Positions 6,829 through 31,831 of a stretch of 32,000 nucleotides of DNA are shown in pieces. Below the pieces are notes generated by a model. The model did not search any database, was not told the origin of the DNA, and saw only the letters and a list, made by a program, of their open reading frames with translations. The first letter of the stretch is position 1. Each line of letters opens with the position of its first letter. A program made the translations under genes and the position numbers. This DNA is from Candidatus Iainarchaeum sp. (GTDB taxonomy: Archaea; Iainarchaeota; Iainarchaeia; Iainarchaeales; JAZDEL01), in NCBI GenBank assembly GCA_043808785.1, contig JAZDEL010000003.1, forward strand, positions 1 through 32,000, given 5' to 3'.

Positions 6829-7344
6829 TCAGAGCAGTTCCCTCAGTTCCTTCGTCCCCGCAATTTTCACGGTCAGGAAATGCCACAGCGCAAGCACGAT
6901 TCCCGCCACGGCAAACCAGCTCGCAACGTGCACCGCTTCCGCCGCTCCCGCGCCCCAAATCACCGCGGCAAGAACCACGAGGTAAAGCCTCAGCAGGTTA
7001 AGCGGGAAAAGCACGGCAAACCCCGCGAGGAATATTTTGATTTTTTTCGCTGGTTCCGGCTTCCTCAGCGCGAAAACAATTGACGCGAGCACGACAACGC
7101 TGGCAAGCCCAGTGCAGGATTCGCTTATCCGCAGTTCCCCCCCTCCCGCGAAAATAATGTTTCCCGAATGCCGCAGCCCGAGCAGTCCCGCCTCGAAACC
7201 CGCAAGGGAATTGTTGAGAATGGAAAGGTCCGAGAAAACCAGCAGGGTTTCCAGCACGGCAAAAATAAGCAGGAACTTAACCACAAAAAAAACCGCGCGG
7301 TTCGTTGGTTTGTTTGCACCTGTTTTTTTTGCGGGTTTCACCAC
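6829..7344 (-). CDS. exosortase/archaeosortase (EpsH) family protein, short form
   Basis: 171-aa polytopic protein with the family's Cys/Arg/His signature: ISESCTG, PLNLLR, and a later His (AEAVHVASW). The GTG start overlaps the carS stop (GTGGTGA). Subfamily not assignable by eye. Confidence 0.7.
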   Translation of the reverse strand: MVKPAKKTGANKPTNRAVFFVVKFLLIFAVLETLLVFSDLSILNNSLAGFEAGLLGLRHSGNIIFAGGGELRISESCTGLASVVVLASIVFALRKPEPAKKIKIFLAGFAVLFPLNLLRLYLVVLAAVIWGAGAAEAVHVASWFAVAGIVLALWHFLTVKIAGTKELRELL

Positions 7345-7859
7345 GGCACCTTCTTCAGTTTGAACTTGTACGCCATGAAGTTCGTAAACCTGTGTATTAT
7401 GAGCGTGGCAACCGCGATTATTATTACCTCGTAAAACGATGGCATGTAAACCATGCTGCCGAACAGCATTCCCCCGAAAACGAAATCCAGCTGGTCCACA
7501 ACGAAAACCTGCTCCCCCTGCGCTATGCCGCTCCTCCTCTTGAAAAAGCTCGCTGCAATATCGCCGAAAATCGCCCCCGCGGAAAGCAGGAACCCGAGAA
7601 GGAGGTAATCTCCTGAAACAAGCGCGGCAAGTTCCGGCGCCGCAATGAGGATTATCGCCGAAACGCCTGTGCCCACGGCAATCCCCATGAGCGTTCCCTT
7701 GAATGTCTTCCCGCTCCCCAGGATGGGCTTGCCATCGATGAATTTCCTTCCCAAATCCAGCGGCGTCTTCCCCCCGGGCAGCATTGCGGATGAATTCGCA
7801 AAATAGAGCGGCGCTATGTAAAGCAGCAGTTTAACGATAAAAAGGGTTGTTTCGTCCAA
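7338..7859 (-). CDS. carS: CDP-archaeol synthase (DUF46/CarS)
   Basis: YIAPLYFANSSAM, GKTFKGTLMG, FGDIAASFFKRR and VVDQLDF match the CarS family signature. TTG start at 7859 (no upstream ATG in frame). Confidence 0.85.
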   Translation of the reverse strand: MDETTLFIVKLLLYIAPLYFANSSAMLPGGKTPLDLGRKFIDGKPILGSGKTFKGTLMGIAVGTGVSAIILIAAPELAALVSGDYLLLGFLLSAGAIFGDIAASFFKRRSGIAQGEQVFVVDQLDFVFGGMLFGSMVYMPSFYEVIIIAVATLIIHRFTNFMAYKFKLKKVPW

Positions 7860-9748: not shown

Positions 9749-10339
9749 CTAGCCCCTGATTATCCTGGACTTCACGACTTCAACCCTCTTTATAGGCACA
9801 ATCTTCCTTGCCTCGTTTGAAACAGTCCCCGCAATATTGCCGAACACAAGCGCATCTAGCGCCTTCTCTGGCTCCATCCCCTTTACAAATGCACCCATCT
9901 GTTCCTCCACAACCTTCCTTATCGCCGCCTCCTTTTCGCGCGCGCTCTTCCTCATTGTCAGGCAAACAGTCTTTACCCTGATGTGCCCTTTGCTGAGCGG
10001 GATATCCTGCACTACCTCTATCTTGCTTGTGCGCCTCCTTGTGAACCTGCGCATATAGCCCCCGCCTATGTCGTGCCCTTCCGCTTCCGTGTATGCCTTG
10101 TTGCCCTTCACATCGTTAATCCTGAAAAGAAGTTTCACGTGCGCCCTGCTTGCCTGGTTCGCAAGCTCCCTGCCGCTCACGCCTATAACCCTGCCAAGCA
10201 GGTGTTCCGGCTTTGTCGCAATTGTCTCCCCTATGGGCTTCCTTTCGAAGTGCGCTGGCGAGTATATCTCATACCACACCTTCTTCTTCCACTTGTCCAC
10301 GGAGCGCTTTGCCGCCCTTTCCTTTCCCTTTTCAGCCAT
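9749..10339 (-). CDS. rps3ae: 30S ribosomal protein S3Ae (eS1)
   Basis: KKKVWYEIYSPAHFERKPIGETIA...LLGRVIGVSGRELAN is typical of the S3Ae N-terminus. Length is 196 aa. Confidence 0.92.
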   Translation of the reverse strand: MAEKGKERAAKRSVDKWKKKVWYEIYSPAHFERKPIGETIATKPEHLLGRVIGVSGRELANQASRAHVKLLFRINDVKGNKAYTEAEGHDIGGGYMRRFTRRRTSKIEVVQDIPLSKGHIRVKTVCLTMRKSAREKEAAIRKVVEEQMGAFVKGMEPEKALDALVFGNIAGTVSNEARKIVPIKRVEVVKSRIIRG

Positions 10340-10411
10340 GGTTTCACTTTCCCCCGCGCCTTAATTTTCAATTTCCTTTTTCGTTTTTTTTCATTTTCCT
10401 TTCCAAAATTT

Positions 10412-10525
10412 TCATTCTCCCTTCCCGATTATCTCATTTATTTCCGCGAGGATTTGCTTCGGCTCTTTGTCCCCCGAAGCCTTGCCCATCCTCTTCACGA
10501 AATCATACCCCAGTTCGTACTTCAT
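10412..10525 (-). CDS. possible 37-aa small protein between rps15 and rps3ae
   Basis: My own translation: MKYELGYDFVKRMGKASGDKEPKQILAEINEIIGKGE. The ATG at 10525 is preceded by CGGTGAAAAA (GGTGA SD). Not in the ORF track because it is under 60 aa. Confidence 0.3.
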   Translation of the reverse strand: MKYELGYDFVKRMGKASGDKEPKQILAEINEIIGKGE

Positions 10526-10535
10526 TTTTTCACCG

Positions 10536-11246
10536 CTACTTCACAAGCAGTGCCGCTGTTTCCGGCGTGTACCTCCACGCAACGGGCAGCTTGCCCTTCC
10601 TGTGGTAATAATTCACAAGCCTCCTTATCTTGCTCACCGTCAATTGGTATCCGCGCTTTGCTGTGAAATCCTTCTTGTTCGCCTTCATGTGCCTCTGCAG
10701 GGTTACGCTCCTCCTTATGAGGTTTAGCAGGTCCCTTGGCACCTCAGGCAAAAGGTTGTGCTTCCCTAGCACATCCTCGACAGTTACCCCGGCGACCTTT
10801 TTCAGTTTCGGTATCCCGTACTGGTCGCGCAGCATCATTCCTATCTGCGATGCTGTGTGCCCTGTGTTCGCCATGTTCACAATAGCCTGCTCAAGTTCTG
10901 CAGGCTTATAATCAACCCAGTCAAGCACCTGCTTCCCCGCAGGGCGCTTCCTCTCCTGCTTATCGGCCCAGTCGAAATCCCTGTCAGCGCCCTTCCTTTT
11001 CTTCGCGGGCTTTTTTTCCGTGCTCTCTTCCAAGGGTTCCGAAGATGCCTCGACGTCATGCTTTTTTTCGGCTGCTTTGTGTTCCTCTTTCTCCGCCTTA
11101 TGCCCCGCCTTCTCAGCCTTCTTTGAGGCGGCTTTCTTGGGGGTCTTTTCCGCCTTCTTTGCAGCGCCTTCGGCAGCCTTATGGCTGGCTTTCCCATGCG
11201 CCTTTTCCTCGGCAGCCTCTTCCTTCTCGAGAGCCTTTTTCGCCAT
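10536..11246 (-). CDS. rps15: 30S ribosomal protein S15 (uS15/S13e) with ~95-aa Lys/Ala/Glu-rich N-terminal extension
   Basis: The C-terminal ~140 aa (DWVDYKPAELEQAIVNMANTGHTASQIGMMLRDQYGIPKLK...RRLVNYYHRKGKLPVAWRY) match archaeal S15. ATG at 11246 is preceded by GGAAGGTG with a 5-nt spacer. Confidence 0.88.
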   Translation of the reverse strand: MAKKALEKEEAAEEKAHGKASHKAAEGAAKKAEKTPKKAASKKAEKAGHKAEKEEHKAAEKKHDVEASSEPLEESTEKKPAKKRKGADRDFDWADKQERKRPAGKQVLDWVDYKPAELEQAIVNMANTGHTASQIGMMLRDQYGIPKLKKVAGVTVEDVLGKHNLLPEVPRDLLNLIRRSVTLQRHMKANKKDFTAKRGYQLTVSKIRRLVNYYHRKGKLPVAWRYTPETAALLVK

Positions 11247-12613: not shown

Positions 12614-13261
12614 TCAGTGATACCTCACCCTCCCCTCAACAGCCTCAACCTTCCTTTCAATCTCCCTGCCTTTCGGGTTCCCGCGCGCGTAGCCCTGCAT
12701 TATCGCCTCCCATCCCTTCGGCATCAGTTCCCAGTGCGTGGCGGAAAAGGTTTTCTTGAACACAAGCAGGTCAACCGCAAAATCCTCGGTGCGCGAGCTC
12801 ATGAAGCCGAGGCCGAAATCAACAAAAACCAAACCCGCTTTCGCGGTTTTTTTGGGTTTTTGGTTAGGCACAATGATGTTGCTTGTTGTGAGGTCGCCGT
12901 GAACCAAACCCCCGCGGTGCAGTTTTGCAACATTCCTGCCAACCTCGCTGCAGAACCCGAAGACGTTTTTTTTATTTTTACCTTTCTTCCGCATCACATC
13001 CCGCAGCTTCTCCCCATCCACAAACTCCATCACAATCTCTGTCCCAGCGCGGTCAACATTGTAAATCAGCGGCGCCCTCACCCCGCACTCCTTTGCCCTG
13101 TGCAGGAGCAGGCACTCCTCTTTAGTGCGAAGCCTGCGTATGCGCGCGTCAAGCGCGCTGTTCCTGTATTTTTTTGGAACCCTGCGCTTCACAAGCGCAG
13201 GCCTGCCGAGATAATCCGTGCGCCAGAGTTCCGCTTCCGCGCCCTTTGCGATAAGTCTCAT
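12614..13261 (-). CDS. bud32: Bud32/PRPK-type atypical protein kinase (KEOPS subunit)
   Basis: Small RIO-like kinase: GAEAELW, VKRRVPKKYR, HGDLTTSNIIV, VDFGLG and C-terminal EGRVRY. Not fused to kae1. Confidence 0.85.
   Translation of the reverse strand: MRLIAKGAEAELWRTDYLGRPALVKRRVPKKYRNSALDARIRRLRTKEECLLLHRAKECGVRAPLIYNVDRAGTEIVMEFVDGEKLRDVMRKKGKNKKNVFGFCSEVGRNVAKLHRGGLVHGDLTTSNIIVPNQKPKKTAKAGLVFVDFGLGFMSSRTEDFAVDLLVFKKTFSATHWELMPKGWEAIMQGYARGNPKGREIERKVEAVEGRVRYH
12830..12863 (+). repeat. copy of the palindromic element inside the bud32 coding sequence
   Basis: CAAACCCGCTTTCGCGGTTTTTTTGGGTTTTTGG. On the minus strand it is translated as NQKPKKTAKAGLV. Confidence 0.6.
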
Positions 13262-13324: not shown

Positions 13325-13885
13325 CTAACCCGCACAATACGAATTTAATTTTTCGATAAAAATCTCCGCCCCGTCCCTCGCCCCTTCCGCGGAGCCGAAA
13401 TATTCCCCCCCTTCCTCGATGCCAAGCTTTGCCGCCTGCGCAGGATAATCGCGCAAAAGGATATTCAGGTTCTCAAGCACCAACTCGGCCTTTGATTTCA
13501 CAGTTGAGAACATCTCCTTCTCCTGAGCGATTTTCCCCCCCGCGGAGCAGTCGGGGTTTGCGAAATCCGTTTTCTTCATGAGTGCCGCAGCTTCCGAAAT
13601 GTCCTGCTCAATATCCGCGAAAATCATCCTCGAATCCGTGAGCAGTTTCAGCGCCTTGTCGTCCGCGCCGTCCCCGAGCCCCGCCCCGAAATCCTTCAAA
13701 GCGGTGCGGTATTCGGAAATGCCCTTCGCATCCGCGGGAACCATTGCCCCGCCCTGCACGAACTTCGAGTTCATCGTGCCGAATTCAGCCGCTTTCCCCC
13801 CGAGGCCGCCCTGCGTGAACACATAAACAGCGCCCGCCGCTGCAAGAACCAGCAGCACAAGTAAAACCTTCTTCTTCAAGCCCAT
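13325..13885 (-). CDS. hypothetical protein with N-terminal membrane anchor
   Basis: MGLKKKVLLVLLVLAAAGAVYVF anchor, then a helical soluble domain. No recognisable motifs. Confidence 0.5.
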   Translation of the reverse strand: MGLKKKVLLVLLVLAAAGAVYVFTQGGLGGKAAEFGTMNSKFVQGGAMVPADAKGISEYRTALKDFGAGLGDGADDKALKLLTDSRMIFADIEQDISEAAALMKKTDFANPDCSAGGKIAQEKEMFSTVKSKAELVLENLNILLRDYPAQAAKLGIEEGGEYFGSAEGARDGAEIFIEKLNSYCAG

Positions 13886-17563: not shown

Positions 17564-18742
17564 TCATTTAAAATGCTTCCTCACCCTTTCGAAGAAGCCC
17601 TCCCTCCCCGCCTTCACAGAATCGCCAGAGGCAAGCTCCTCGAACAGCTCGCGCTGCCTCTTGCCCAAATGCTCCGGCGTCTTCAAAATAACCTTTACAT
17701 ATTCGTCCCCTTTCCCTATCCCCCCGAGCTCCTCAATCCCCTGCCCCTTTAATTTGAAAACAGTCCCTGTCTGCGTTCCCGCCGGAATTTTCACATTCGC
17801 CTTCCCGCGGATGGTAGGGACGTCAACAGTTGTTCCCAGTGCGGCCTCGGCGAAACTCAATGGCATCTCAGCGAAAATATCCGCCCCGTCCCTTTTGAAA
17901 ATTTCGTGAGGCTCCACAAAAATAATCACAAAAAGGTCGCCCACGCTTCCTCCAGCCTCCCCGAAATGACCCTCGCCCTTCAGCCTGAGATGGTTTCCCG
18001 TGTTCACGCCCGCGGGAATCTTTATTTTTATCCTGCGCCTGTTTCCGACAGCGCCCGAACCCGCGCACTTCGGGCATTTTTCCTTTGCCGTTTCCCCCCT
18101 TCCCCCGCACTTCCTGCACGTGCCCTGCGTTGCGAAAATTCCAAATGCGGTGCGCTGCTCATGCCTCTCAATGCCCGAACCGTGGCAAACAGGGCACCTT
18201 TCGACCTTTCCGCCCTTTGCCCCCGTGCCATTGCACGCCCCGCAAACTTCAGCGCGCTCTATTTCAACTTCCTTCACTGTGCCAAAAGCCGCCTCCAAAA
18301 AAGAAACCGAAAGCCTTGCAACAATATCCTGCCCTTTCGATGGGCCGCGTTTCCTCCCGCGCGCCCCCGCGCCGCGCCCCCCCATTGCGGAGAACAAATC
18401 CTCAAATCCCCTTGCGCCCCCAAAACTAAATCCGCCGAGGTTCTCAAACAGGTCGCCGAAATCGAATTCCATGTGCGAAAAGCCGGCACCCGGGCCGCCA
18501 AAGCCCGAGAAGCCGGAGAAGCGCTCGGCAGCATCCCCGAACCTGTCGTAATTCGCCCGCTTCTGCGGGTCGCCGAGCACGTGGTATGCCTCTAAAATTT
18601 CCTTGAACTTCGCCTCCGCGTTCGCCTCCCTGCTCACGTCGGGGTGGAACTTTTTCGCAAGGTTCTTGTACGCGGACTTTATCTCCGCATCGGTAGCGCT
18701 CTTCCCCACGCCGAGGGCGGCATAGTAGTCCTTCCCAGCCAA
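17564..18742 (-). CDS. dnaJ: molecular chaperone DnaJ (type I)
   Basis: J-domain (DYYAALGV...HPD), Gly/Phe-rich linker and four CxxCxGxG zinc-finger repeats. TTG start. Confidence 0.92.
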   Translation of the reverse strand: MAGKDYYAALGVGKSATDAEIKSAYKNLAKKFHPDVSREANAEAKFKEILEAYHVLGDPQKRANYDRFGDAAERFSGFSGFGGPGAGFSHMEFDFGDLFENLGGFSFGGARGFEDLFSAMGGRGAGARGRKRGPSKGQDIVARLSVSFLEAAFGTVKEVEIERAEVCGACNGTGAKGGKVERCPVCHGSGIERHEQRTAFGIFATQGTCRKCGGRGETAKEKCPKCAGSGAVGNRRRIKIKIPAGVNTGNHLRLKGEGHFGEAGGSVGDLFVIIFVEPHEIFKRDGADIFAEMPLSFAEAALGTTVDVPTIRGKANVKIPAGTQTGTVFKLKGQGIEELGGIGKGDEYVKVILKTPEHLGKRQRELFEELASGDSVKAGREGFFERVRKHFK

Positions 18743-18785
18743 GTTTCCATCCCCTGCAGGATAATCCAGTGCCTTCCGGAACCGC

Positions 18786-18998
18786 CTAGGCGAGCTTCTT
18801 TATCACGTAATCCGAGGCAATAAGGATTGCAAACCCCGCAATGAGCGAAACCATGTAACTCAGCGGCGGGTTTTCAGGGAAGAGGTAAAGGTTCTCCAGC
18901 CCGAACATGCCGCGCCAGAACGAAACCATTGCAATGCCGATTATCACCGCAAAGATAAGTTGGTGCTGGACCTGCAGTTTTGCAAAATACCTGAGCAT
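18786..18998 (-). CDS. small two-TM membrane protein between dnaK and dnaJ
   Basis: 70 aa with two hydrophobic helices. ATG preceded by GGGGGATAAGC. No recognisable family. Confidence 0.45.
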   Translation of the reverse strand: MLRYFAKLQVQHQLIFAVIIGIAMVSFWRGMFGLENLYLFPENPPLSYMVSLIAGFAILIASDYVIKKLA

Positions 18999-19090
18999 GC
19001 TTATCCCCCATATAACGGAAGGTAGGCTTTTTATTGCTTGCCCCGCACGCGTAGCTTTCCGTACCCCGGCCCGCGCAATTCGCGGCGCCC

Positions 19091-20992
19091 TTATTTGCCT
19101 TCATCCTCGACAGTGTAGTCCGCGTCTACAACCTTTCCTTTCTTTTTCCCTTTTTTGGTTTTGGGCGCTTCATCATCCGGCCCCCCGAAGCCATCGGCAT
19201 CTCCGCCCGCGCCCTGCTGCCCCTTTGCAGCATCCTGCGCCGCGCGCCGGTAGAGTTCCGTCGAGGCTTCCTGCACCGCTGCATTGACTTCCTCAAGTTT
19301 CTGCTTCACCTTTGCCGCGTCCTTCTTCTCCGGCTTGAGCAGTTCCTTGAGTTCGCTTATGCCCGCCTTTATCTTCTCCTCCTTTCCCTTCTCGAACTTG
19401 CCCTCGTTTTCCTTGAGCATTTTCTCCGTGCCGTAGACCATGGCATCGGCCTGATTTATTGTTTCAACCTCTTCGCGCCTTTTCCGGTCTTCCGATGCGT
19501 GCGCCTCCGCTTCCTTCTTCATGCGCTCTATCTCCGCATCGTTTAGTTTCTGCGAGGCGACAATCTTTATGCTCTGCTCCCTGCCCGTCCCCAGATCCTT
19601 TGCGTTCACGTTCACAATTCCGTTTGCATCGATGTCGAACGTTACCTCTATCTGCGGCACGCCCCTCGGTGCGGGAGGAATCCCGACCAACTGGAACCTT
19701 CCAAGGGTTTTATTCCCCGCAACCATCGCCCTCTCCCCCTGCAGTACATGTATATCAACCGCGGGCTGGTTGTCCGAGGCTGTCGAGAACACCTGGGATT
19801 TCTTTGTCGGAATGGTTGTATTGCGTTCAATAAGTTTCGTGAAAACCCCGCCCAAGGTTTCAATGCCGAGCGAGAGCGGAGTGACATCAAGCAAAAGAAC
19901 ATCCTTCACTTCCCCCGCAAGCACGCCTCCCTGTATTGCCGCTCCCATTGCAACGCACTCCATCGGGTCGACGCCCCTCTCTACCTGCGTCCCGACAACC
20001 TTCTCCACAAACTTCTGCACAACAGGCATCCTTGTAGGGCCGCCTACCATTATTATCTTGTCAACATTCCCCGACTTCATCTTCGCGTCAGAGAGCGCCT
20101 GCGTTATCGGCTTCTCGCACTTCTTTATTATCGGCATCACGAGTTCCTCTAATTTCGCGCGGTTGATTTTCATGACCAAATGCTTGGGTCCCGAGGAATC
20201 CGCGGTTACGTAAGGCAGGTTAATCTCAGTTTCAAGGGTTGTGCTGAGTTCAATTTTCGCCTTCTCCGCCGCCTCCCTCAGCCTCTGCATCGCCATCTTG
20301 TCCTTGTTCAGGTCCGCGCCATCGGTGCGCTTGAATTCATTCACAATGTAATCCACAAGCACCGCGTCCATATCTGTTCCGCCCAATTGCGTGTCCCCGC
20401 TCGTGGATTTGACCTCAAACACCCCTTCCCCGAATTCCATTATTGTCACATCAAGGGTTCCGCCTCCGAAGTCGAAAACAAGTATCCTGTGGTCCTTGCC
20501 TTTCTTGTCAAGGCCATATGCAAGCGAAGCAGCGGTCGGCTCGTTAATTATCCTCACCACATCCAGCCCCGCGATTTTCCCCGCGTCCTTTGTTGCCTGC
20601 CTCTGGTTGTCATCAAAATACGCGGGCACGGTGATTACCGCCTTCTCCACTCTCTCCCCTAAAAATTCCTCCGCATCCTTCTTTATCTTTTGCAGGAGGA
20701 ACGCGCTTATCTGCTGCGGCGTGTACTCCTTCCCGTGAACCTTGTACTTGTGGTTGGTTCCCATCTTGCGCTTTGCCGCGGTGATTGTGCCCTCGTGGTT
20801 GCTAACGGCCTGCCTGCGCGCAGGCTCCCCCACAAGCATCTGCCCGTCCTTTGTAAACGCAACAACGCTGGGGAACGCCTTTCCGTAAAGCGTCGCCCCC
20901 TCCGCGCTTGGTATTATTTTCGGCTTTCCCGCTTCCAGAAAAGCCGCCGCACTGTTCGAGGTGCCTAAATCTATCCCTATGATTTTCGCCAT
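19091..20992 (-). CDS. dnaK: molecular chaperone DnaK (Hsp70)
   Basis: [15 protein letters not shown]..., DLGGGTFD-like [10 protein letters not shown] and the full substrate-binding domain. The ATG at 20992 lies 9 nt after GGAGG. The 49-codon Arg/Lys-rich upstream extension in the ORF track is rejected. Confidence 0.95.
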
Positions 20993-21006
20993 TTTCATCA
21001 TCCTCC

Positions 21007-21036
21007 GTTCAAAAATAAATGCCCCAGTTAAGGGGC
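21007..21036 (-). terminator. hairpin GCCCC-TTAACT-GGGGC followed by ATTTATTTTT, just upstream of dnaK
   Basis: The stem is at 21021..21036 and includes the first base of the sORF TAG stop. The T-rich tract is at 21011..21020 on the minus strand. That tract could instead be the dnaK TATA box. Confidence 0.35.
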
Positions 21037-21116
21037 TATTCCTCCTCGCAGCCGCAGCATTCGCTGCAGCAGTTACTCCCCTTTTTCTCCGCTTTTTTCG
21101 CCTTTGCCTTCGCCAT
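21036..21116 (-). CDS. possible 26-aa Cys-rich small ORF between grpE and dnaK
   Basis: My own translation: [26 protein letters not shown]. The ATG at 21116 is preceded by GGAGGT with a 7-nt spacer. The TAG stop sits in a GCCCC/GGGGC hairpin. Confidence 0.3.
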
Positions 21117-21281
21117 TTCACGACCTCCTTTTTTCCCAATGCCTGTCATGAAGCGTAATAAACCCCGCATCCCTGCTGTTCGGGATGCGCTGCCTCTTTC
21201 TTCTGCCCTTTTTTTTCTTCTCCGGATGTTTCAGGAACCATAACACGCATCGCCCCTTTTGCCCGCCTTGCCATCGCGCAT

Positions 21282-21875
21282 TCACTCCCTCTTATTCACC
21301 TTTACCTTCGCGTGCCTCAGCACCTTTCCGTTAATCAAATAACCCTTCTGTATTTCCTCAATCACGATTGCGTCACCATTTTCCTTTTCGCACGCATGCG
21401 CTATGCAATCATGCAGCGCGGGGTCGAACTTCTTCCCGAGCGCGTGCATCTCCTCTGTCCCGAACCCCTTCAGCACCCTCATGAACTGGTTCCTTATTGG
21501 TTCAATCGCCTTTTTTTCCTCCGCCCCCGAATTTTTCATTGCACTATCCATCGTGTCCGCGAGCGGCAAAAACCTCGCAACCGTTGCAGCATTGCCGTAA
21601 CCTATAATATTCACCATCTCCCTCTCCGCGCGCTTTTTGTAATTCTCGAACTCCGCCTGCAGCCTCTGGAGGGTTTCCACAAGTTCCTTTTTCTCGCGTT
21701 CCAGATGCGCGGCTTTTTCCCCACGCCCGTTTTTTTCGGCATCCTGCGGCTTTGCGGCTTTCGGAGGTGACGCATTTTTTTCAGCCGGCTTTGCGGACTT
21801 GCCGGCTTCCGCAGCTTTGCCCGCTGCCTTTTCCTCCACATCCTTCGCCTTCTCAGCCAAAAAACCACTGTCCAA
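21282..21875 (-). CDS. grpE: nucleotide exchange factor GrpE with Lys/Ala-rich N-terminal tail
   Basis: LQRLQAEFENYKKRAEREM... plus the C-terminal beta domain (GYLINGKVLRHAKVKV). The start is uncertain: TTG 21875 is the first candidate after an in-frame TGA. Confidence 0.88.
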   Translation of the reverse strand: MDSGFLAEKAKDVEEKAAGKAAEAGKSAKPAEKNASPPKAAKPQDAEKNGRGEKAAHLEREKKELVETLQRLQAEFENYKKRAEREMVNIIGYGNAATVARFLPLADTMDSAMKNSGAEEKKAIEPIRNQFMRVLKGFGTEEMHALGKKFDPALHDCIAHACEKENGDAIVIEEIQKGYLINGKVLRHAKVKVNKRE

Positions 21876-26592: not shown

Positions 26593-27528
26593 TTAATCGC
26601 GCAGTTTTTTCTTGTGCATAATATACTCGTGCGTCTCCGTCCCTATGCCATTTTTCCTGTACGCCAGCGACTGCTTTGGAATAACTTCCGGCCATTTGTG
26701 CACCTCTACCCACCCGCGTTTGGGCAAATATCTTGCAGTAGTATCGGTACGGAGCATCGCGCCCAGTTCCCCAATGCCAGTCCGCCTTGCAGCGCTCTCG
26801 ACAGCGTCTAATAGAACAAATGACAGTTTATTGTGCCTGTAATTGTAGGTTTTAGTTTTTGATTCTTCAAGCCGTTTGTCGATTCTTGCGAGAGTTTCCT
26901 TGTCCATCCATAGCCAGTCAGTCAAATCGTCAAAGCGCTGGCTGCCCCTCTTTTCCCCCGCCATCTTTTTTCTTATCTTTTTGATTTCTTCAATTTCACC
27001 CGGCTCTGCGGAATTTTTTAGGGTTTTCCGGTCCTGCGGGCTCAGGGATGTGTTCTTCCGCCTTACTCTTTCGGATATCGCGAGTGATGAAACATTTGGC
27101 CTTATCAGTTCCGGACGGAATGAAACCAAGCCAATAGTTGTTTCCTGGCCGTTCCATATTGTATTCAGCGAATATCCGCCGTAGGGGTTTTGCGCACCCC
27201 CCGTTTTTCTCAAAACAAGAACCCTTTCTTTCCTCACGGGGTCTTTAAGCACGAACAGTGCGTTCCCGTCTTCGGTTATTCGGGGTGTCTCAAAAATGTG
27301 CCCCGCGTGCTCTATCCTGAGAACCCTGTTGTTTGATTTGACCGCCCCTGCAGGGAGCAGCAGATGATTCCACTTCCCGCTTTTCGGAATTTCAAAGCCG
27401 CTTTCATAAGGCTTGAAATTCTGCAGATGTTTTTGCGTAATTCTTTTCGCGTTCGGAAACAGAACCGCATGCCCGAGCAATTTAATTGGTTTCCTTGGCC
27501 CTAGCAATTTAACATTGCGTTTTTCCAT
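26593..27528 (-). CDS. uncharacterised protein, paralog A of tandem pair
   Basis: 311 aa from ATG 27528. About half of the N-terminal ~110 residues are identical to 27565..28476. Central Lys/Glu/Arg-rich segment, then a C-terminal Y.YR..KLS...aA...G....T..Y...GWV pattern. AT-rich. Confidence 0.6.
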   Translation of the reverse strand: MEKRNVKLLGPRKPIKLLGHAVLFPNAKRITQKHLQNFKPYESGFEIPKSGKWNHLLLPAGAVKSNNRVLRIEHAGHIFETPRITEDGNALFVLKDPVRKERVLVLRKTGGAQNPYGGYSLNTIWNGQETTIGLVSFRPELIRPNVSSLAISERVRRKNTSLSPQDRKTLKNSAEPGEIEEIKKIRKKMAGEKRGSQRFDDLTDWLWMDKETLARIDKRLEESKTKTYNYRHNKLSFVLLDAVESAARRTGIGELGAMLRTDTTARYLPKRGWVEVHKWPEVIPKQSLAYRKNGIGTETHEYIMHKKKLRD

Positions 27529-27564
27529 AGCAATCAACCCCGATTCGTACTCATGCCTTCGCAG

Positions 27565-28476
27565 CTAGCCACCCTCAGCCTGCAGGTTCAGCCTGTAAAT
27601 CCTGTAGTTCCCGCTGAACTTTTTAGTGGGCACCCAGCCATACCTGTCAAAATACTTTTCCGTTGTGCTCGGGGTTAGCGCGCCTTCCAAAAACCTCAGC
27701 CCCGCCTTTTTTGCGGCATTCACGCTCAGGTCGTAGATTGCCCCGGAAAGCTTTTTGCTCCTGTAATCGTATCTCTTTATTTTTGCATCCTTGTCTCTGT
27801 ATGCCCAATCATAGTATTTCCATTCCATTATGTCTATTTTACCCGGACCGAGGTTATGCTTCGTCCATTCTTTTTTGAATAATTCTTCATTAGGCTCAAA
27901 CCCTACAATTTTTTCCCGTTTCCTGTGCTCCTCCAGGGCGTTTTCCAAGGCTAACTTCCTGTGCTTTGGGTTATTCCGCCTCTTTGACAACTCGATTGCC
28001 TCGCCCGCAGTAATCGAACTCGGCTTCCTCCTCACATCGCCGTAAATTTCAAGGTGCTTAATCCAGCCGCAGTTTTGCTCCGTAGGGTGCCGAACCATAT
28101 ACATCCCGCCTATGTACTGTTCATGCCCGTTCCAGAGCGAGGTCAGCAGGTACCTGCCGAACGGATCATTTGTTTCGCCCGACTTCCTCAGGAGCACAAC
28201 CCGCCCCTTCCTTACCGGATCCTTCAATGCAAGCAGCACCGACCCGTAATTCGTTTTCAGCGGAGTTTCAAGAATCCGCCCTTCATGTTCAATCCTGAGT
28301 GCTGTGCGGCTTGCCTTCACAGCGCCCGAAGGAAGTCGCAGGTTCTGCAGTTCCTTTTTTTCCGGAATATTGAAATCGCTTCCATATGGCCGAAACTTTT
28401 GCAGGTGCTTTTGCGTAGTTTCTTTAGCTTTCGGGAACCGCACCATTCTTCCGATTTTTTCAACATTCACCGCCAC
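27565..28476 (-). CDS. uncharacterised protein, paralog B of tandem pair
   Basis: 303 aa. The GTG start at 28476 overlaps the kae1 stop (GTGGCGGTGA). Same conserved blocks as paralog A. Confidence 0.6.
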   Translation of the reverse strand: MAVNVEKIGRMVRFPKAKETTQKHLQKFRPYGSDFNIPEKKELQNLRLPSGAVKASRTALRIEHEGRILETPLKTNYGSVLLALKDPVRKGRVVLLRKSGETNDPFGRYLLTSLWNGHEQYIGGMYMVRHPTEQNCGWIKHLEIYGDVRRKPSSITAGEAIELSKRRNNPKHRKLALENALEEHRKREKIVGFEPNEELFKKEWTKHNLGPGKIDIMEWKYYDWAYRDKDAKIKRYDYRSKKLSGAIYDLSVNAAKKAGLRFLEGALTPSTTEKYFDRYGWVPTKKFSGNYRIYRLNLQAEGG

Positions 28477-29447
28477 TTCACCTCAACATCATCAGTCCTG
28501 AACCTCTGGTTCACGTGCGTGTCAGCAATGCGCTGCCTTCTTCCCGCTGCGTGCTCCAGCAAACCCTGCCACGCAATCATCGCGCCGTTATCCACCGCCA
28601 AATCCCGCGGCGTGGCGTAAAACTTCGCGCCCTGCCCCGCGCACATTTCGGAAAGCATTTCCTGCAATGCCTTGCTCGCCCCAACCCCGCCAGTTAGCAG
28701 AAGCTCCTTCTTGCCTGCATGAACCATCGCCCTTTCGCTCACCTCGGTGAGCATCGCAAATGCGGTGTGGAGTAAGGAATAAGCCAGCCGCTCCTTCTGC
28801 TCCCTGCCAACCTTACTCTCCGCTGCAGTGAGCAGCCCTGAAAAATTAAGGTCCATCCCTTTCACCGAGTAAGGCAGCTCCAGCAATTCCCTCCCCCCCT
28901 CGAAATACATCTTATCCAGCACAGGCCCCGCCGGAAACCCCAAACCAAGCGAACGCCCGAATGTGTCGAGCATATTCCCTATTCCCATATCGAGTGTTTC
29001 CCCGAAAACCCTGTACCTGCCCCCCTCATATGCGATAACCTGCGTGTTCGCGCCCGAGGCATAAACAACAAGCGGGTCCTTTGCACCGGTTTTCTTTTTT
29101 CCGATTTCGATGTGTGCAATGCAGTGGTTCACGCCGAGGATGGGTTTGTTATGTAGCAAAGAAAGTATTCGTGCGGAAGTTGCCCCTACTCTCAGGCAGG
29201 GCCCCAACCCCGGCCCCTGCGCAAATGAAAACAAATCAACATCACAGATTTCAATCCCGCCTTTCTCGAGCGCGCGTGAAATTACGCCCGCGGCATTTTC
29301 AAGGTGAGCATCCGCGGCATCCGCGGGCTTTATCCCCCCTTCATTTGTTGTGAACGCGCATTTCTCGTTCGCAAGAACGTTGCAGTGTTCATCCACAATT
29401 CCCGCGGAAAATGTGTGGGCAGTGCTCTCGATGCCGAGGCAAATCAT
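28467..29447 (-). CDS. kae1: tRNA N6-adenosine threonylcarbamoyltransferase Kae1
   Basis: ICLGIESTAHTFSAGIV, GVNHCIAHIEIG and the ASKHA fold throughout. The second ATG (29447) is better spaced from GGGGTG than the first (29453). Confidence 0.92.
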   Translation of the reverse strand: MICLGIESTAHTFSAGIVDEHCNVLANEKCAFTTNEGGIKPADAADAHLENAAGVISRALEKGGIEICDVDLFSFAQGPGLGPCLRVGATSARILSLLHNKPILGVNHCIAHIEIGKKKTGAKDPLVVYASGANTQVIAYEGGRYRVFGETLDMGIGNMLDTFGRSLGLGFPAGPVLDKMYFEGGRELLELPYSVKGMDLNFSGLLTAAESKVGREQKERLAYSLLHTAFAMLTEVSERAMVHAGKKELLLTGGVGASKALQEMLSEMCAGQGAKFYATPRDLAVDNGAMIAWQGLLEHAAGRRQRIADTHVNQRFRTDDVEVKWR

Positions 29448-29509
29448 TCCCATGCACCCCGCGCACGAAACGCGCAGCCTTTGCAGACCATTTCCCCGCC
29501 CCTTAAATG

Positions 29510-29525: not shown

Positions 29526-30152
29526 TTATTTTTTCCCTTCCCCCAGAACCCGCATTATCTCCGCCAGCGTAACCTCGCCCTGCCTGAGGATTTTCCTGTT
29601 CTTCACGTCGAAAATAGTTGTTGTCGGGCGCTCGGGAAGGTCGCCCGCGTCAAGTATGACATCCGCAATCCCGTTGAAAACCTCTATTGCATGCTCCCCG
29701 CTGTAGCACGGGTCGTAACCATAGAGGTTCGCACTAGTGGTTATTATCGGCTCGCCAAGCCCCGCACAGAGCGCGTTCGCAATTTTGTTGTTCGCAATCC
29801 TGAACCCTATGCCGTTGTTGCTGACCCATTCTGGAACCGTTTCCTTCCTCTTGACAACAATGCTCAATCTGCCGTGGTTAAAACGCTTCACAAGCCTGTC
29901 GGCATCCTCGTCCAGTACCGCATATTTCCCCGCCATTTCCCTGCCGGAAACATGCATAAGGAACGGCTTCCCGTTGCGCCTTGATTTGATGTCCTTTATT
30001 TTCTCGACAGCATCCCTTTCCTTTATGCTCGCGCCTATGCCGTAACTTGTTTCAGTGGGGTAAATAATTACCTTCCCCGCCTTAAGTTCCTTAACCGCAA
30101 GGCTTACCGCCTTCGCCCCCCCGATATCCTCAATCCTCAATATGATGGTCAT
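29526..30152 (-). CDS. tsaC: L-threonylcarbamoyladenylate synthase, YrdC-domain-only form (Sua5/TsaC family)
   Basis: VIIYPTETSYGIGA, KPFLMHV and ITTSANLYG motifs. At ~208 aa it lacks the C-terminal Sua5 domain. Start is ATG 30152, or GTG 30161 overlapping the upstream stop. Confidence 0.85.
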   Translation of the reverse strand: MTIILRIEDIGGAKAVSLAVKELKAGKVIIYPTETSYGIGASIKERDAVEKIKDIKSRRNGKPFLMHVSGREMAGKYAVLDEDADRLVKRFNHGRLSIVVKRKETVPEWVSNNGIGFRIANNKIANALCAGLGEPIITTSANLYGYDPCYSGEHAIEVFNGIADVILDAGDLPERPTTTIFDVKNRKILRQGEVTLAEIMRVLGEGKK

Positions 30153-30157
30153 TTTTA

Positions 30158-30697
30158 TCACATAAGCCAGCCAATTGCCATGAAATTATACGCCATGTGG
30201 GCAAAAATACCCGGGATGATGTTCTTGTTCGCCCTGTACGCGTGCGCAAGCAAGGCACCAAGCACAAACGCACCCAAAATCTCGGCAATTGAGCCGTAAC
30301 CAAAGTGCGCAAGGGCAAAAAACGCGGAAGAAACCCAGATTCCGGTTTTCTTTGCCAGAAAACCCCTGAAAAACACCTCCTCGCTAAAAACCCTGACTAT
30401 AATCAGGTACCCAAATATATAAATGGGTTGGTTTTTCAGGAAGCCGAGCTTTTCCTGCACAAGGTTAAGGTCGTTCATTCCCGCGATGGTTAACAGCGTT
30501 GATAGCGCGGCGGAAACAAGAAAAAGCGCGCAGAAAAGCCACGCGGCATTTTTAATTTCGGTTTTCGGTTCGCGGAAAAACAGCCCGAGTCCGGAAAGAA
30601 GCTTCCCCCCGCCCTTAACCTTATCGATAAGCGCCAGGTAAATTAACGGCGCGGCAATAATGAGCCCGTCAAAAAAAACCTGCTCTAGCAAGGTCAA
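30158..30697 (-). CDS. CPBP (CAAX/Abi) family intramembrane glutamic endopeptidase
   Basis: SEEVFFRGFL (EExxxR), FFALAHF (FxxxH) and HMAYN (HxxxN) motifs in a polytopic protein. TTG start is uncertain. Confidence 0.8.
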   Translation of the reverse strand: MTLLEQVFFDGLIIAAPLIYLALIDKVKGGGKLLSGLGLFFREPKTEIKNAAWLFCALFLVSAALSTLLTIAGMNDLNLVQEKLGFLKNQPIYIFGYLIIVRVFSEEVFFRGFLAKKTGIWVSSAFFALAHFGYGSIAEILGAFVLGALLAHAYRANKNIIPGIFAHMAYNFMAIGWLM

Positions 30698-30810: not shown

Positions 30811-31026
30811 TCATGCCTTCGGCTTCCACTCCGTGAAGCCGCATCTCCCGCAGCTGTCCCTGTCCTTGTGCGAAGCAAGGAACACGCCCGAGCCGCACTT
30901 CGGGCACTGCTTCCTGCTCCTGCCTATTGCTCCCCCGTCCATAGTGTAGCACGAGCCCTTCCCCGTTTTTTTCTCCTTCGCTTTCGCCTTTCCCCCGCCA
31001 GCCTTTCCTTTTGCGTCATCCGCCAT
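30811..31026 (-). CDS. rps27ae: 30S ribosomal protein S27ae (eS31) with Lys/Gly/Ala-rich N-terminal tail
   Basis: CPKCGSGVFLASHKDRDSCGRCGF zinc ribbon. Position after rps24e is the conserved archaeal order. Confidence 0.85.
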   Translation of the reverse strand: MADDAKGKAGGGKAKAKEKKTGKGSCYTMDGGAIGRSRKQCPKCGSGVFLASHKDRDSCGRCGFTEWKPKA

Positions 31027-31056: not shown

Positions 31057-31509
31057 TTATTTCGCTTCCGCTTTCTCCGCAGGCTTTTCCGCACCCGCCT
31101 TTGCAGCCTCTGCTTCGGCCTTTCCCCCGCCAGCGTGCCCAGGCTCGGCAGCCTTTGCCTTGCCTTCCTGCCCGTCATTCTTTGTTGCAGCCGGCGCTGC
31201 CGCTTTCTTCCCCCCTTTCTTCTGCCTGCCCCTGAGCCCGAGGGTGCGGTTTATTACGAACTTTTCCTCAACCGCCTCCATACTCTCCCTGGATGGGTAA
31301 ACAGTTGCCCCGCCCGTAACCCTGTGCTCGCCGAACCTCTCGGTAATGCTCCCCAACGCAATGCTTTCCTCCTTCGCATTGCACAGCGCGGCAAGTTTTG
31401 CCCTTATCTCCTTCCTGCCGGGCGTCTTCACACAGTCCGAAACCTCGAACATGAGTTCCTCCCTGCCTATGAGCGGGTTCTTCACCCTGCCTGTTATTTC
31501 CAGTTTCAT
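31057..31509 (-). CDS. rps24e: 30S ribosomal protein S24e (eS24) with ~50-aa Lys/Ala/Gly/Glu-rich C-terminal tail
   Basis: The N-terminal ~100 aa (NPLIGREELMFEV...TPGRKEIRAKLA...FGEHRVTGGATVY) match S24e. GGGGTG SD is present. Confidence 0.88.
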   Translation of the reverse strand: MKLEITGRVKNPLIGREELMFEVSDCVKTPGRKEIRAKLAALCNAKEESIALGSITERFGEHRVTGGATVYPSRESMEAVEEKFVINRTLGLRGRQKKGGKKAAAPAATKNDGQEGKAKAAEPGHAGGGKAEAEAAKAGAEKPAEKAEAK

Positions 31510-31636: not shown

Positions 31637-31831
31637 TTACCTGCTCAGGCGCAGCGCGTGCATCCCTATCGTATTTATCCCCATCTTCTGCGCAATCTCG
31701 CTTTTCTCGGGGTCGATTATTACAACATAGCCGCGCCAGAAGGTTGTGAAAGAGGTGCTTCCGCACACCGGGCACTTTTCCCCTGTTTCAATTACCTTCC
31801 TGCACTGCCTGCATGCCTTTCCTTTCTGCAT
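31637..31831 (-). CDS. spt4: transcription elongation factor Spt4 (RpoE'')
   Basis: KACRQCRKV...CPVCGS zinc ribbon followed by WRGYVVIIDPEKSEIAQKMG. GGAGG lies 8 nt upstream. The conserved spt4-rps24e-rps27ae order is present. Confidence 0.87.
   Translation of the reverse strand: MQKGKACRQCRKVIETGEKCPVCGSTSFTTFWRGYVVIIDPEKSEIAQKMGINTIGMHALRLSR

What the first reader, a model, noticed from the sequence alone, without database searches (positions are those of the whole stretch)
26593..28476. Tandem pair of AT-rich, uncharacterised paralogs translationally coupled to the sua5/tsaC-kae1 (t6A) genes
**Seen in the sequence**
- Two adjacent minus-strand genes (311 and 303 aa) follow kae1.
- The GTG start of the first overlaps the kae1 TGA (GTGGCGGTGA). 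The second starts 36 nt after the first ends.
- They are clear paralogs. My hand alignment gives about 60 identities over about 112 N-terminal positions. Shared blocks are FP.AK..TQKHLQ.F.PY, LP.GAVK, LRIEH.G.I.ETP, LKDPVRK.RV..LRK.G and WNG.
- A poorly conserved Lys/Glu/Arg-rich central segment follows.
- A shared C-terminal pattern comes last: Y.YR..KLS....D...aA...G......T...Y...GWV.
- Hand GC counts on 100-nt samples give about 36-40% here against about 62% in kae1.

**Interpretation**
- I cannot place them in any family from memory.
- The C-terminal pattern is reminiscent of the last alpha/beta elements of GNAT or Fem-type acyltransferases. The Q/RxxGxG/A acetyl-CoA loop is absent.
- The composition suggests acquired DNA that is nevertheless wired into a core tRNA-modification operon.
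- No Pcc1 or Cgi121 gene is visible nearby and bud32 sits 15 kb away.
- Candidate roles, all inferred: a lineage-specific KEOPS or t6A accessory factor, or an aminoacyl/acyl transferase acting on tRNA.
Basis: partly seen in the sequence, partly recalled or inferred. Interest (0 to 1): 0.78.

Follow-up and report, generated by a model that had tools for sequence, protein, structure and literature searches.

The report
Tandem divergent GNAT-fold genes after kae1

Summary
The gene pair is real. Par1 (27565-28470/76, minus strand) and Par2 (26593-27528) are 37% identical (E 2e-51). Par1's start overlaps the kae1 stop and Par2 starts 36 nt after Par1 ends. The composition claim is overstated: GC is 48-50% against 55% in kae1, not 36-40% against 62%.

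An exhaustive HMMER search of 1.84 billion proteins found about two dozen related clusters. All are very basic (pI 9.4-10.7). Every named source is a DPANN archaeon (Diapherotrites, Micrarchaeota). No Pfam, NCBIfam or PHROG model reaches threshold.

An AlphaFold model built on 23 family sequences (pLDDT 81) matches only GNAT acyltransferases in PDB and BFVD. The C-terminal block aligns to GNAT motif A, α3, β5 and α4. The window copies carry R-x-x-K-L-S where GNATs have Q/R-x-x-G-x-G/A.

None of 28 homologous loci encodes Kae1, TsaC or Bud32 nearby. Contexts vary: HMG-CoA reductase in Micrarchaeota, EF-2/EF-1α, arginase and others.

Verdict: these are a lineage-specific tandem duplication of a divergent, DPANN-restricted GNAT-fold family packed into the tsaC-kae1 operon. 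They are probably acyl-CoA-dependent acyltransferases with an unknown substrate. A KEOPS/t6A accessory role is not supported. Interest is modest.

The parts
27565..28476 (-). Par1, the upstream paralog. It is 303 aa from GTG 28476; the probable true start is GTG 28470 (301 aa, the NCBI model). It is a GNAT-fold protein with pI 9.9.
   Evidence: ORF. Identical to NCBI protein V1676_02925 of a Ca. Diapherotrites MAG. AF2 model has pLDDT 81. Foldseek returns GNATs only.
26593..27528 (-). Par2, the downstream paralog. It is 311 aa from ATG 27528 (the mechanical ORF extends to TTG 27537). pI is 10.2. It is the less diverged copy.
   Evidence: ORF. 37% identical to Par1, E 2e-51. Equals representative P0002. 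Sister to Par1 in the NJ tree, on a shorter branch.
28467..28484 (-). Junction of kae1 and Par1. The kae1 TGA (28467-28469) overlaps the Par1 start (GTGA). An SD-like GAGGTGA lies at 28478-28484.
   Evidence: Sequence read directly.
27529..27564 (-). 36-nt spacer between Par1 and Par2. It holds an SD-like GGGGT (27537-27541) and no A/T-rich box.
   Evidence: Sequence read directly.
28183..28227 (-). Family signature L-K-D-P-V-R-K-x-R-V-x-x-L-R-K (Par1 residues 84-98) in the N-terminal β-rich half. P87 and R97 are invariant and D86 nearly invariant across 23 family sequences.
   Evidence: Alignment A2.
27793..28029 (-). Variable helical K/E/R-rich insertion (Par1 residues about 150-228). It is predicted as four helices. 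Homologs P0003 and P0009 nearly lack it.
   Evidence: Alignments A1 and A2. Model secondary structure and lower pLDDT.
27745..27771 (-). Par1 Y236-D-Y-R-S-K-K-L-S244: short β4 plus a degenerate GNAT motif A. R239-x-x-K242-L-S244 aligns to RimI Q76-x-x-G79-L-G81.
   Evidence: hhalign of A2 against the RimI alignment. PDB profile hits to the motif A region of GNATs.
26821..26847 (-). Par2 Y-N-Y-R-H-N-K-L-S, the same degenerate motif A position.
   Evidence: Weak NCBIfam AAC(2')-Ic and ArsN2 GNAT hits at Par2 residues 232-284.
28467..29453 (-). kae1 (328 aa, stand-alone, not fused to bud32). This is the upstream operon neighbour.
   Evidence: Pfam TsaD, E 1.1e-72.
29526..30161 (-). tsaC-type Sua5/YrdC gene (211 aa, YrdC domain only). 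It lies upstream of kae1.
   Evidence: Pfam Sua5_yciO_yrdC, E 2.6e-44.

Best explanation
Par1 and Par2 are real protein-coding genes. They arose by a tandem duplication specific to this lineage.

They belong to a small, strongly basic protein family seen so far only in DPANN archaea. The family is a highly divergent branch of the GNAT (acyl-CoA N-acyltransferase) superfamily. Its anatomy has three parts:
- an N-terminal β-rich half with the family signature LKDPxRKxxLxxLRK;
- a helical insertion of very variable length;
- a C-terminal half that corresponds to GNAT β4, motif A, α3, β5, α4, β6 and β7.

The pair lies at the tail of a co-directional cluster: Spt4, S24e, S27ae, a CPBP protease, tsaC, kae1, Par1, Par2. 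Start/stop overlap and short spacers suggest co-transcription and coupled translation. This is inferred, not shown.

Most likely mechanism (inferred): the proteins bind an acyl-CoA through the β4-α3 loop and transfer the acyl group to an amine on a macromolecular, probably polyanionic, substrate. Candidates are a ribosomal or translation-factor protein, or RNA. The two copies may work as a hetero-oligomer.

The adjacency to kae1 reflects operon packing in a compact genome, not a conserved functional link to t6A synthesis.
For: - Paralogy is clear: E 2e-51.
- The family is small. An exhaustive HMMER search of 1.84 billion representatives found 25 clusters at E<=1e-3. Two of them, P0018 and P0024, are long proteins with many short matches to the K/E-rich centre and are probably spurious.
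- Named sources are Ca. Diapherotrites and Ca. Micrarchaeota three times. The other contigs carry archaeal histone, r-protein and aIF6 genes.
- The AF2 model from the 23-sequence alignment has pLDDT 81 and pTM 0.73.
- All 50 top PDB hits are GNATs. The best is 2r7h_A (E 5.2e-4, probability 1.0). TM-scores normalised to the target are 0.44-0.56 for most full-length matches.
- Most named top BFVD hits are also GNAT acetyltransferases, with target TM-scores up to 0.72.
- Even the poor 2-sequence model (pLDDT 48) retrieved only GNATs.
- Sequence level: 10 of 23 members give weak Acetyltransf_1 hits on profile positions 66-116 (best E 2e-4). Four hit Acetyltransf_7 and three hit Acetyltransf_10.
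- The family profile hits the motif A regions of PDB GNATs.
- hhalign to RimI aligns Par1 237-288 with RimI 74-127, E 1.6e-3.
- Both window copies keep every invariant or nearly invariant family residue: D86, P87, R97, G117, E119, Y238, R239, L243, A255, G259, T271, G280, W281.
- All members have pI 9.4-10.7.
- No Kae1, TsaC or Bud32 homolog occurs in any of the 28 homologous loci. Contexts differ.
Against: - The GNAT assignment rests on a predicted structure, with modest Foldseek E-values (5e-4 at best) and sub-threshold sequence hits. hhalign probability is only 16%.
- The N-terminal half has no sequence match to anything.
- The window copies have Lys and Ser where the motif A glycines normally sit, so CoA binding is not assured.
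- Nothing here bears on the substrate. A basic pI is common in this genome.
- Translation-related neighbours are expected by chance in reduced genomes.
- Several homologous loci are short (1-3 kb), so missing kae1 there is weak evidence.
Confidence: 0.6

Rival explanations
1. The pair is a lineage-specific KEOPS/t6A accessory factor. It might replace Pcc1, Cgi121 or Pcc2, or it might acetylate Kae1 or tRNA, in the way RimI is linked to TsaB and TsaD in bacteria.
For: - Par1's start overlaps the kae1 stop, and the operon is co-directional with tsaC.
- No Pcc1 or Cgi121 hit was found among the window ORFs. The Bud32-like kinase is 15 kb away.
- Pcc2 was detected in only one DPANN lineage (PMC9889334).
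- There is a bacterial precedent. The GNAT gene rimI sits in tsaE-tsaB-rimI-tsaD operons with 4-bp overlaps, and RimI acetylates TsaD in vitro (PMC5335608).
- The proteins are basic, as expected of RNA binders.
Against: - None of the 28 homologous loci has kae1, tsaC or bud32 within the flanks held.
- Homologs sit after HMG-CoA reductase, inside the EF-2/EF-1α operon, after arginase, after GTP cyclohydrolase I, and elsewhere.
- There is no fold or sequence similarity to any KEOPS or Tsa subunit.
- Overlapping starts and stops with unrelated upstream genes also occur for homologs: L013 with HMGR and L009 with arginase.
Confidence: 0.07
2. These are GNAT-fold pseudo-enzymes. The fold is kept but acyl-CoA chemistry is lost, at least in the window copies. 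The proteins then act as basic binding or scaffold proteins, for example on RNA or ribosomes.
For: - Motif A is degenerate in both copies (RSKKLS and RHNKLS).
- Most members have Phe at the position of the common catalytic Tyr in α4.
- Basicity is strong and conserved.
- The N-terminal half is atypical, with one weak PUA (TruB_C) hit in P0006.
Against: - About half of the family has a canonical R-x-x-G-L-G/A loop. The last position is always small (G, A, S or C).
- CoA pyrophosphate is bound by backbone amides in GNATs, so side-chain changes are tolerated (established knowledge).
- An almost invariant acidic residue (E119) on a core strand is a plausible general base.
Confidence: 0.2
3. The proteins are aminoacyl-tRNA-dependent transferases of the Fem, MprF or Leu/Phe-transferase type. 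These use the GNAT fold without CoA.
For: - GNAT fold, basic pI, and a helical insertion reminiscent of the FemA coiled-coil arm (the FemA comparison is from memory).
- Some neighbours are lipid genes: CarS, HMGR and MVK.
Against: - There is only one GNAT core in 240-310 aa.
- No Fem, MprF or L/F-transferase structure is among the top 50 PDB hits.
- A motif A-like pyrophosphate loop is conserved in the family.
- The helical insertion is dispensable in several members.
Confidence: 0.05
4. The pair is recently acquired foreign or mobile DNA inserted behind kae1.
For: GC is slightly lower (48-50% against a 53% window mean). Par2's GC3 of 0.53 is the lowest in the window. The family is patchily distributed and its position varies between genomes.
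Against: - The deviation is within the window's own range. It is explained largely by K/E/R-rich coding.
- There are no repeats, integrase or tRNA nearby.
- There are no phage, plasmid or PHROG similarities.
- The paralogs are only 37% identical, so the duplication is old.
- The relatives are all DPANN archaea.
Confidence: 0.05

Closest known systems
GNAT (Gcn5-related N-acetyltransferase) superfamily, single-domain members such as RimI, Naa30/Naa50, Ard1 and PAT
   Same: - The predicted fold matches only GNATs.
- The C-terminal 60-70 residues align to motif A, α3, β5 and α4.
- Family consensus in the loop is R-x-x-(G/K/R)-L-(G/A/S/C), and the C-terminal GW matches the GF of motif B.
   Different: - No curated GNAT model reaches its domain threshold.
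- The N-terminal half is a sequence orphan with its own signature (LKDPxRKxxLxxLRK).
- A helical insertion of 0 to about 90 residues precedes the motif A strand.
- The window copies lack both glycines of motif A.
- All members are very basic, and all come from DPANN archaea.
Bacterial rimI in the tsaE-tsaB-rimI-tsaD gene cluster
   Same: A GNAT-fold gene is packed with overlapping start and stop codons next to the Kae1/TsaD-family t6A gene (PMC5335608; window).
   Different: - The bacterial linkage is conserved across genera. Here it is seen in one genome only.
- Similarity to RimI is limited to the generic GNAT C-terminal half.
- This is a different domain of life with different t6A partner proteins.
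KEOPS small subunits (Pcc1, Pcc2, Cgi121, Gon7)
   Same: Only the genomic position next to kae1.
   Different: Size, fold and sequence are unrelated. There is no conserved synteny.

Membership tests
GNAT superfamily (acyl-CoA N-acyltransferase fold) | Mixed α/β GNAT fold (β1-α1-α2-β2-β3-β4-α3-β5-α4-β6-β7) | tested here: met
   The AF2 model (pLDDT 81, pTM 0.73) retrieves only GNATs among the top 50 PDB hits, and mostly GNAT acetyltransferases among the named top BFVD hits. Probability is about 1.0 and target TM-scores run from 0.44 to 0.72 for full-length matches. Caveats: the structure is predicted, E-values are 5e-4 at best, and the α1-α2 equivalent and strand mapping of the N-terminal half are unresolved.
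GNAT superfamily (acyl-CoA N-acyltransferase fold) | Motif A pyrophosphate-binding loop Q/R-x-x-G-x-G/A between β4 and α3 | tested here: inconclusive
   At the aligned position, Par1 has R-S-K-K-L-S and Par2 has R-H-N-K-L-S. Ten of the 21 other aligned members have R-x-x-G-L-(G/A/S/C), and the last position is always small. The family largely meets the feature. The window copies meet it only partly.
GNAT superfamily (acyl-CoA N-acyltransferase fold) | Match to a curated GNAT sequence model (Pfam Acetyltransf_1/7/10, NCBIfam) at its threshold | tested here: not met
   Par1 has no hit. Par2 has only NCBIfam AAC(2')-Ic and ArsN2 at E 0.04-0.07. Homologs give sub-threshold hits, best E 2e-4.
GNAT superfamily (acyl-CoA N-acyltransferase fold) | Acyl-CoA binding and acyl transfer | not testable with these tools
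   This needs biochemistry.
KEOPS / t6A machinery accessory subunit | Homology to Pcc1, Pcc2, Cgi121, Gon7, Bud32, TsaB or TsaE | tested here: not met
   No Pfam or NCBIfam hits. Structural hits are GNATs only.
KEOPS / t6A machinery accessory subunit | Conserved gene neighbourhood with kae1 or sua5 across genomes | tested here: not met
   phmmer with the window's Kae1, TsaC and Bud32 found nothing in six-frame ORFs of the 28 loci that carry family members.
KEOPS / t6A machinery accessory subunit | Physical association with Kae1/Bud32, or an effect on t6A formation | not testable with these tools
   This needs pull-down or in vitro reconstitution.
RimI-type ribosomal-protein / N-terminal acetyltransferase | Full-length sequence relationship to RimI, Ard1 or Naa catalytic subunits | tested here: inconclusive
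   hhalign to a RimI alignment (5isv, 2cnm, 9mto) covers only 52 columns, the generic motif A to β6 region. E is 1.6e-3 and probability 16%. Naa30 and Naa50 structures are among the fold hits, but so are many other GNAT classes.
Fem / Leu-Phe-transferase (aminoacyl-tRNA-dependent GNAT-fold transferases) | Two tandem GNAT-like domains (Fem, MprF), or the L/F-transferase two-domain architecture | tested here: not met
   A single GNAT core lies in 240-310 aa. No such structure is in the top 50 PDB hits.

The most novel reading that the evidence does not exclude
The family could be a DPANN-specific class of acyltransferases that act on the translation apparatus (RNA, ribosomal proteins or factors). 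Its GNAT core would be remodelled by an extra basic β-module and a variable helical arm. In this Diapherotrites lineage the duplicated pair would work with TsaC/Kae1. It could acetylate Kae1 as mycobacterial RimI does TsaD, or it could stand in for KEOPS accessory subunits that were not found in this window.
Probability: 0.08. Interest if true: 0.7.

Novelty: new variant of a known kind. Interest (0 to 1): 0.3.

Why it matters
DPANN archaea have tiny genomes and many orphan genes. Placing an orphan family in a known enzyme superfamily turns "hypothetical" genes into a testable hypothesis: acyl-CoA-dependent modification of a macromolecule.

If the family proved to be a substitute N-terminal, ribosomal or RNA acetyltransferase of reduced archaea, it would add a piece to how these organisms maintain translation.

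For t6A/KEOPS biology the result is mainly negative. The adjacency to kae1 should not be read as evidence for a new KEOPS subunit.

Tried and rejected
- Pfam, NCBIfam and PHROG scans of both paralogs gave nothing at threshold.
- phmmer of Par1 against PDB sequences gave noise only.
- The word-indexed 5.8-billion-protein search returned only the query itself. With the family profile it returned only one more member.
- The search for related loci with the two-paralog alignment found no relatives in genome or metagenome contigs.
- The larger alignments were too degenerate for that tool. I replaced it with a hand-made degenerate DNA pattern for TTG[KR]F[LM]P[KR][YH]GW, which worked.
- The look-up of encoding contigs for the NCBI protein itself found no record.
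- The first AF2 model, from 2 sequences, was poor (pLDDT 48).
- The N-terminal-half profile against PDB sequences gave no hit. The weak PUA/TruB_C hit in one homolog therefore stays unexplained.
- Phage and plasmid tblastn found no match.
- Rfam and tRNA scans of the window found nothing.
- I rejected the Bud32, Cgi121 and Pcc1 readings for Par1/Par2, because there was no kinase or KEOPS-subunit hit and the fold is GNAT.
- I rejected a toxin-antitoxin GNAT reading, because there is no small partner gene and the proteins are twice the size.
Full report
**What is in the sequence**

The window is archaeal. Par1's product is 100% identical to an NCBI hypothetical protein of a Candidatus Diapherotrites (DPANN) MAG.

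On the minus strand, one co-directional cluster runs as follows:
- Spt4 (31637-31831)
- S24e (31057-31509)
- S27ae (30811-31026)
- an Rce1/CPBP-like membrane protease (30158-30697)
- a short tsaC-type Sua5/YrdC gene (29526-30161)
- stand-alone kae1 (28467-29453)
- Par1 (27565-28476)
- Par2 (26593-27537)

Par2 ends 20 nt from the convergent alanine dehydrogenase gene.

- The kae1 TGA is overlapped by the Par1 start. A GAGGTGA motif 7 nt upstream favours GTG 28470, which is the NCBI start, and this gives a GTGA overlap.
- Par2's ATG (27528) lies 36 nt after Par1's TAG, with GGGGT 8 nt upstream.
- The spacers contain no A/T-rich box. Co-transcription and coupled translation are therefore plausible, but they are inferred.

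**Paralogy**

BLASTP gives 37% identity over 294 columns, E 2e-51. There are 62 identities between Par1 residues 9 and 123, plus the C-terminal Y.YR..KLS...AA...G...T..Y...GWV pattern.

**Composition**

| Gene or region | GC | GC3 |
|---|---|---|
| Par1 | 49.6% | 0.60 |
| Par2 | 47.7% | 0.53 |
| kae1 | 55.4% | 0.63 |
| tsaC | 51.3% | 0.64 |
| whole window | 53.1% | – |
| most other window genes | – | 0.59-0.68 |

Other 500-nt windows drop to 46-48%. The pair is mildly AT-shifted. Much of this follows from 20% Lys+Arg and 12% Asp+Glu content. It is not a compositional island.

**How rare the family is**

No Pfam, NCBIfam or PHROG model is hit at threshold. An exhaustive HMMER search with the two-paralog profile against 1.84 billion representative proteins returned only 25 clusters at E<=1e-3. 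Two of them are long proteins that match the K/E-rich centre many times and are probably spurious.

The real members are 240-300 aa long. They fall into two subgroups. Subgroup A holds Par1 and Par2 as sisters, with Par1 on the longer branch. Subgroup B holds the rest.

A degenerate DNA pattern for the C-terminal motif found four species-representative genomes. Three are Ca. Micrarchaeota and one is an "uncultured archaeon". It also found eight metagenome loci that carry members. Other contigs carry archaeal histones, r-proteins, aIF6 and the CCA-adding enzyme. As far as can be seen, the family is restricted to DPANN archaea. All members are strongly basic, with pI 9.4-10.7.

**Fold**

- With only the two paralogs, AlphaFold gave pLDDT 48.
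- With the 23-sequence family alignment it gave pLDDT 81 and pTM 0.73.
- Foldseek against the PDB returned GNAT acyltransferases in all 50 top positions. The best was 2r7h_A (E 5.2e-4, probability 1.0). TM-scores normalised to the target were 0.44-0.56 for most full-length matches, over about 200 columns.
- BFVD gave mostly phage and giant-virus GNAT acetyltransferases among its named top hits, with target TM-scores up to 0.72.

Sequence evidence agrees for the C-terminal half.
- Ten of 23 members give weak Acetyltransf_1 hits on profile positions about 66-116. Four hit Acetyltransf_7 and three hit Acetyltransf_10.
- The family profile picks motif A regions of PDB GNATs.
- hhalign against a RimI alignment aligns Par1 237-288 with RimI 74-127, E 1.6e-3. 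The RimI sequences were verified against 5isv, 2cnm and 9mto.
- In that register RimI's Q76-R-Q-G79-L-G81 corresponds to Par1's R239-S-K-K242-L-S244 and Par2's R-H-N-K-L-S.
- Across the family the loop reads (R/Q)-x-x-(G/K/R)-L-(G/A/S/C). About half of the members have Gly at position 4.

The loop is present in the family and degenerate in the window copies.

**What is atypical**

- The N-terminal half (residues about 50-145) is predicted as eight β-strands. It carries the family's strongest signature, L-[KR]-D-P-x-[RH]-K-x-x-L-x-x-[LV]-R-K, and a near-invariant G-x-E.
- This half has no sequence match to any solved structure. One homolog gives a lone sub-threshold TruB_C/PUA hit there, which I could not follow up.
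- Between this half and the motif A strand lies a helical K/E/R-rich insertion. It ranges from almost nothing (P0003, P0009) to about 90 residues.
- I could not inspect coordinates. How the N-terminal strands map onto GNAT β1-β4, and whether α1-α2 exist, remains open.

**Genomic context elsewhere**

I obtained 28 loci that carry family members, about 17 of them distinct, with flanks of up to 10 kb. phmmer with the window's Kae1, TsaC and Bud32 found no homolog in any of them. The contexts differ:
- between acetolactate synthase and an amino-acid kinase/aaRS block (P0004);
- divergent from the S12-S7-EF-2-EF-1α-S10 operon and convergent with CarS (P0005);
- upstream of a β-CASP RNase, PGI and a tRNA U5-methyltransferase (P0006);
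- upstream of a methyltransferase (P0007);
- overlapping the end of an arginase-family gene (P0009);
- inside the str operon between EF-2 and EF-1α (P0012);
- after GTP cyclohydrolase I (P0016);
- in several Micrarchaeota loci, directly after HMG-CoA reductase and convergent with mevalonate kinase.

Tight packing behind unrelated housekeeping genes is this family's habit and does not mark a link to kae1.

One precedent is worth recording. In Mycobacterium, Bacillus, Clostridium and Corynebacterium the GNAT gene rimI sits inside tsaE-tsaB-rimI-tsaD clusters with 4-bp overlaps. Mycobacterial RimI acetylates TsaD in vitro (PMC5335608). The window arrangement looks like that one. Without conservation across genomes it stays an analogy.

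**Most likely mechanism**

Shown:
- The genes are real, duplicated and conserved. Both copies retain all family-invariant residues.
- The predicted fold is GNAT, with a motif A-like loop.

Inferred:
- The proteins bind acyl-CoA and transfer the acyl group to an amine.
- The conserved high positive charge and the frequent translation-related neighbours suggest a polyanionic or translation-apparatus substrate.
- The tandem pair may form a hetero-oligomer.

I give about 0.8 to the GNAT-fold assignment. I give about 0.45 to catalytic acyl-CoA transferase activity in the window copies. I give about 0.07 to a functional tie to t6A synthesis.

The other readings are a pseudo-enzyme, an aminoacyl-tRNA-dependent transferase and foreign DNA. 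They are listed under the rival explanations with their evidence. No phage, plasmid or PHROG similarity exists.

**Novelty and interest**

It turns a set of hypothetical proteins into a testable enzyme hypothesis. Interest: 0.3.

Noticed in passing
L011 5229-6036 and 6772-7488; L026 660-1479 and 2245-2958: Ca. Micrarchaeota also carry two family copies close together, separated by a 228-aa membrane or secreted protein. The first copy is split into two overlapping frames at the same place in two independent assemblies. The split is therefore a real frameshift or pseudogene, or a recoding site, and not a sequencing error.
   Followed up: partly
L011, L013, L014, L022, L026, L027: In subgroup B (Micrarchaeota-like contigs) the family gene sits directly after HMG-CoA reductase, with stop/start overlap in L013. 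It is convergent with mevalonate kinase. The arrangement persists although the family proteins are only about 38-47% identical. This is a possible link to CoA-thioester or isoprenoid metabolism and remains unexplained.
   Followed up: partly
L018 4269-5114: A family member (P0012) is inserted co-directionally inside the otherwise highly conserved archaeal str operon, between the EF-2 and EF-1α genes. P0005 lies divergently next to the same operon (L004).
   Followed up: no
P0006 residues 36-77 (equivalent to window Par1 residues about 55-98, 28183-28314): There is a lone sub-threshold Pfam hit to TruB_C (a PUA domain), E 2.3e-4, in the N-terminal β-rich half of one homolog. It could hint at an RNA-binding β-module. 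The family's N-terminal profile finds nothing in PDB sequences.
   Followed up: partly
window 12614-13261 (-) and 13325-13885 (-): A small RIO/Bud32-like kinase (215 aa) lies 15 kb from the stand-alone kae1. The 186-aa ORF immediately upstream has no family hit. No Pcc1 or Cgi121 hit was found among the window ORFs scanned.
   Followed up: partly
window 29526-30161 (-) and 30158-30697 (-): The Sua5-family gene is the short TsaC type: 211 aa with the YrdC domain only and no SUA5 domain. Its start overlaps by 4 nt the stop of an Rce1/CPBP-like membrane protease gene, which itself follows S27ae.
   Followed up: no
window 17564-21875 (-): A complete bacterial-type GrpE-DnaK-DnaJ chaperone cluster is present in this DPANN archaeon. 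A metallo-β-lactamase-fold gene and a class I aaRS lie downstream of it.
   Followed up: no
window 6829-7859 (-), 9749-11246 (-); L004 8837-12270: The window and the P0005 contig share a local gene set (CarS, S3Ae, S15). The family gene sits next to CarS there, but about 19 kb from CarS here. This shows the family gene has moved between related genomes. An exosortase/archaeosortase-like ORF (6829-7344) abuts CarS in the window.
   Followed up: no
representative-search hits P0018 (777 aa) and P0024 (3574 aa): These two long proteins match the profile in 10-16 short stretches that fall in the K/E-rich central segment. They are probably low-complexity or coiled-coil false positives and not family members.
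   Followed up: no
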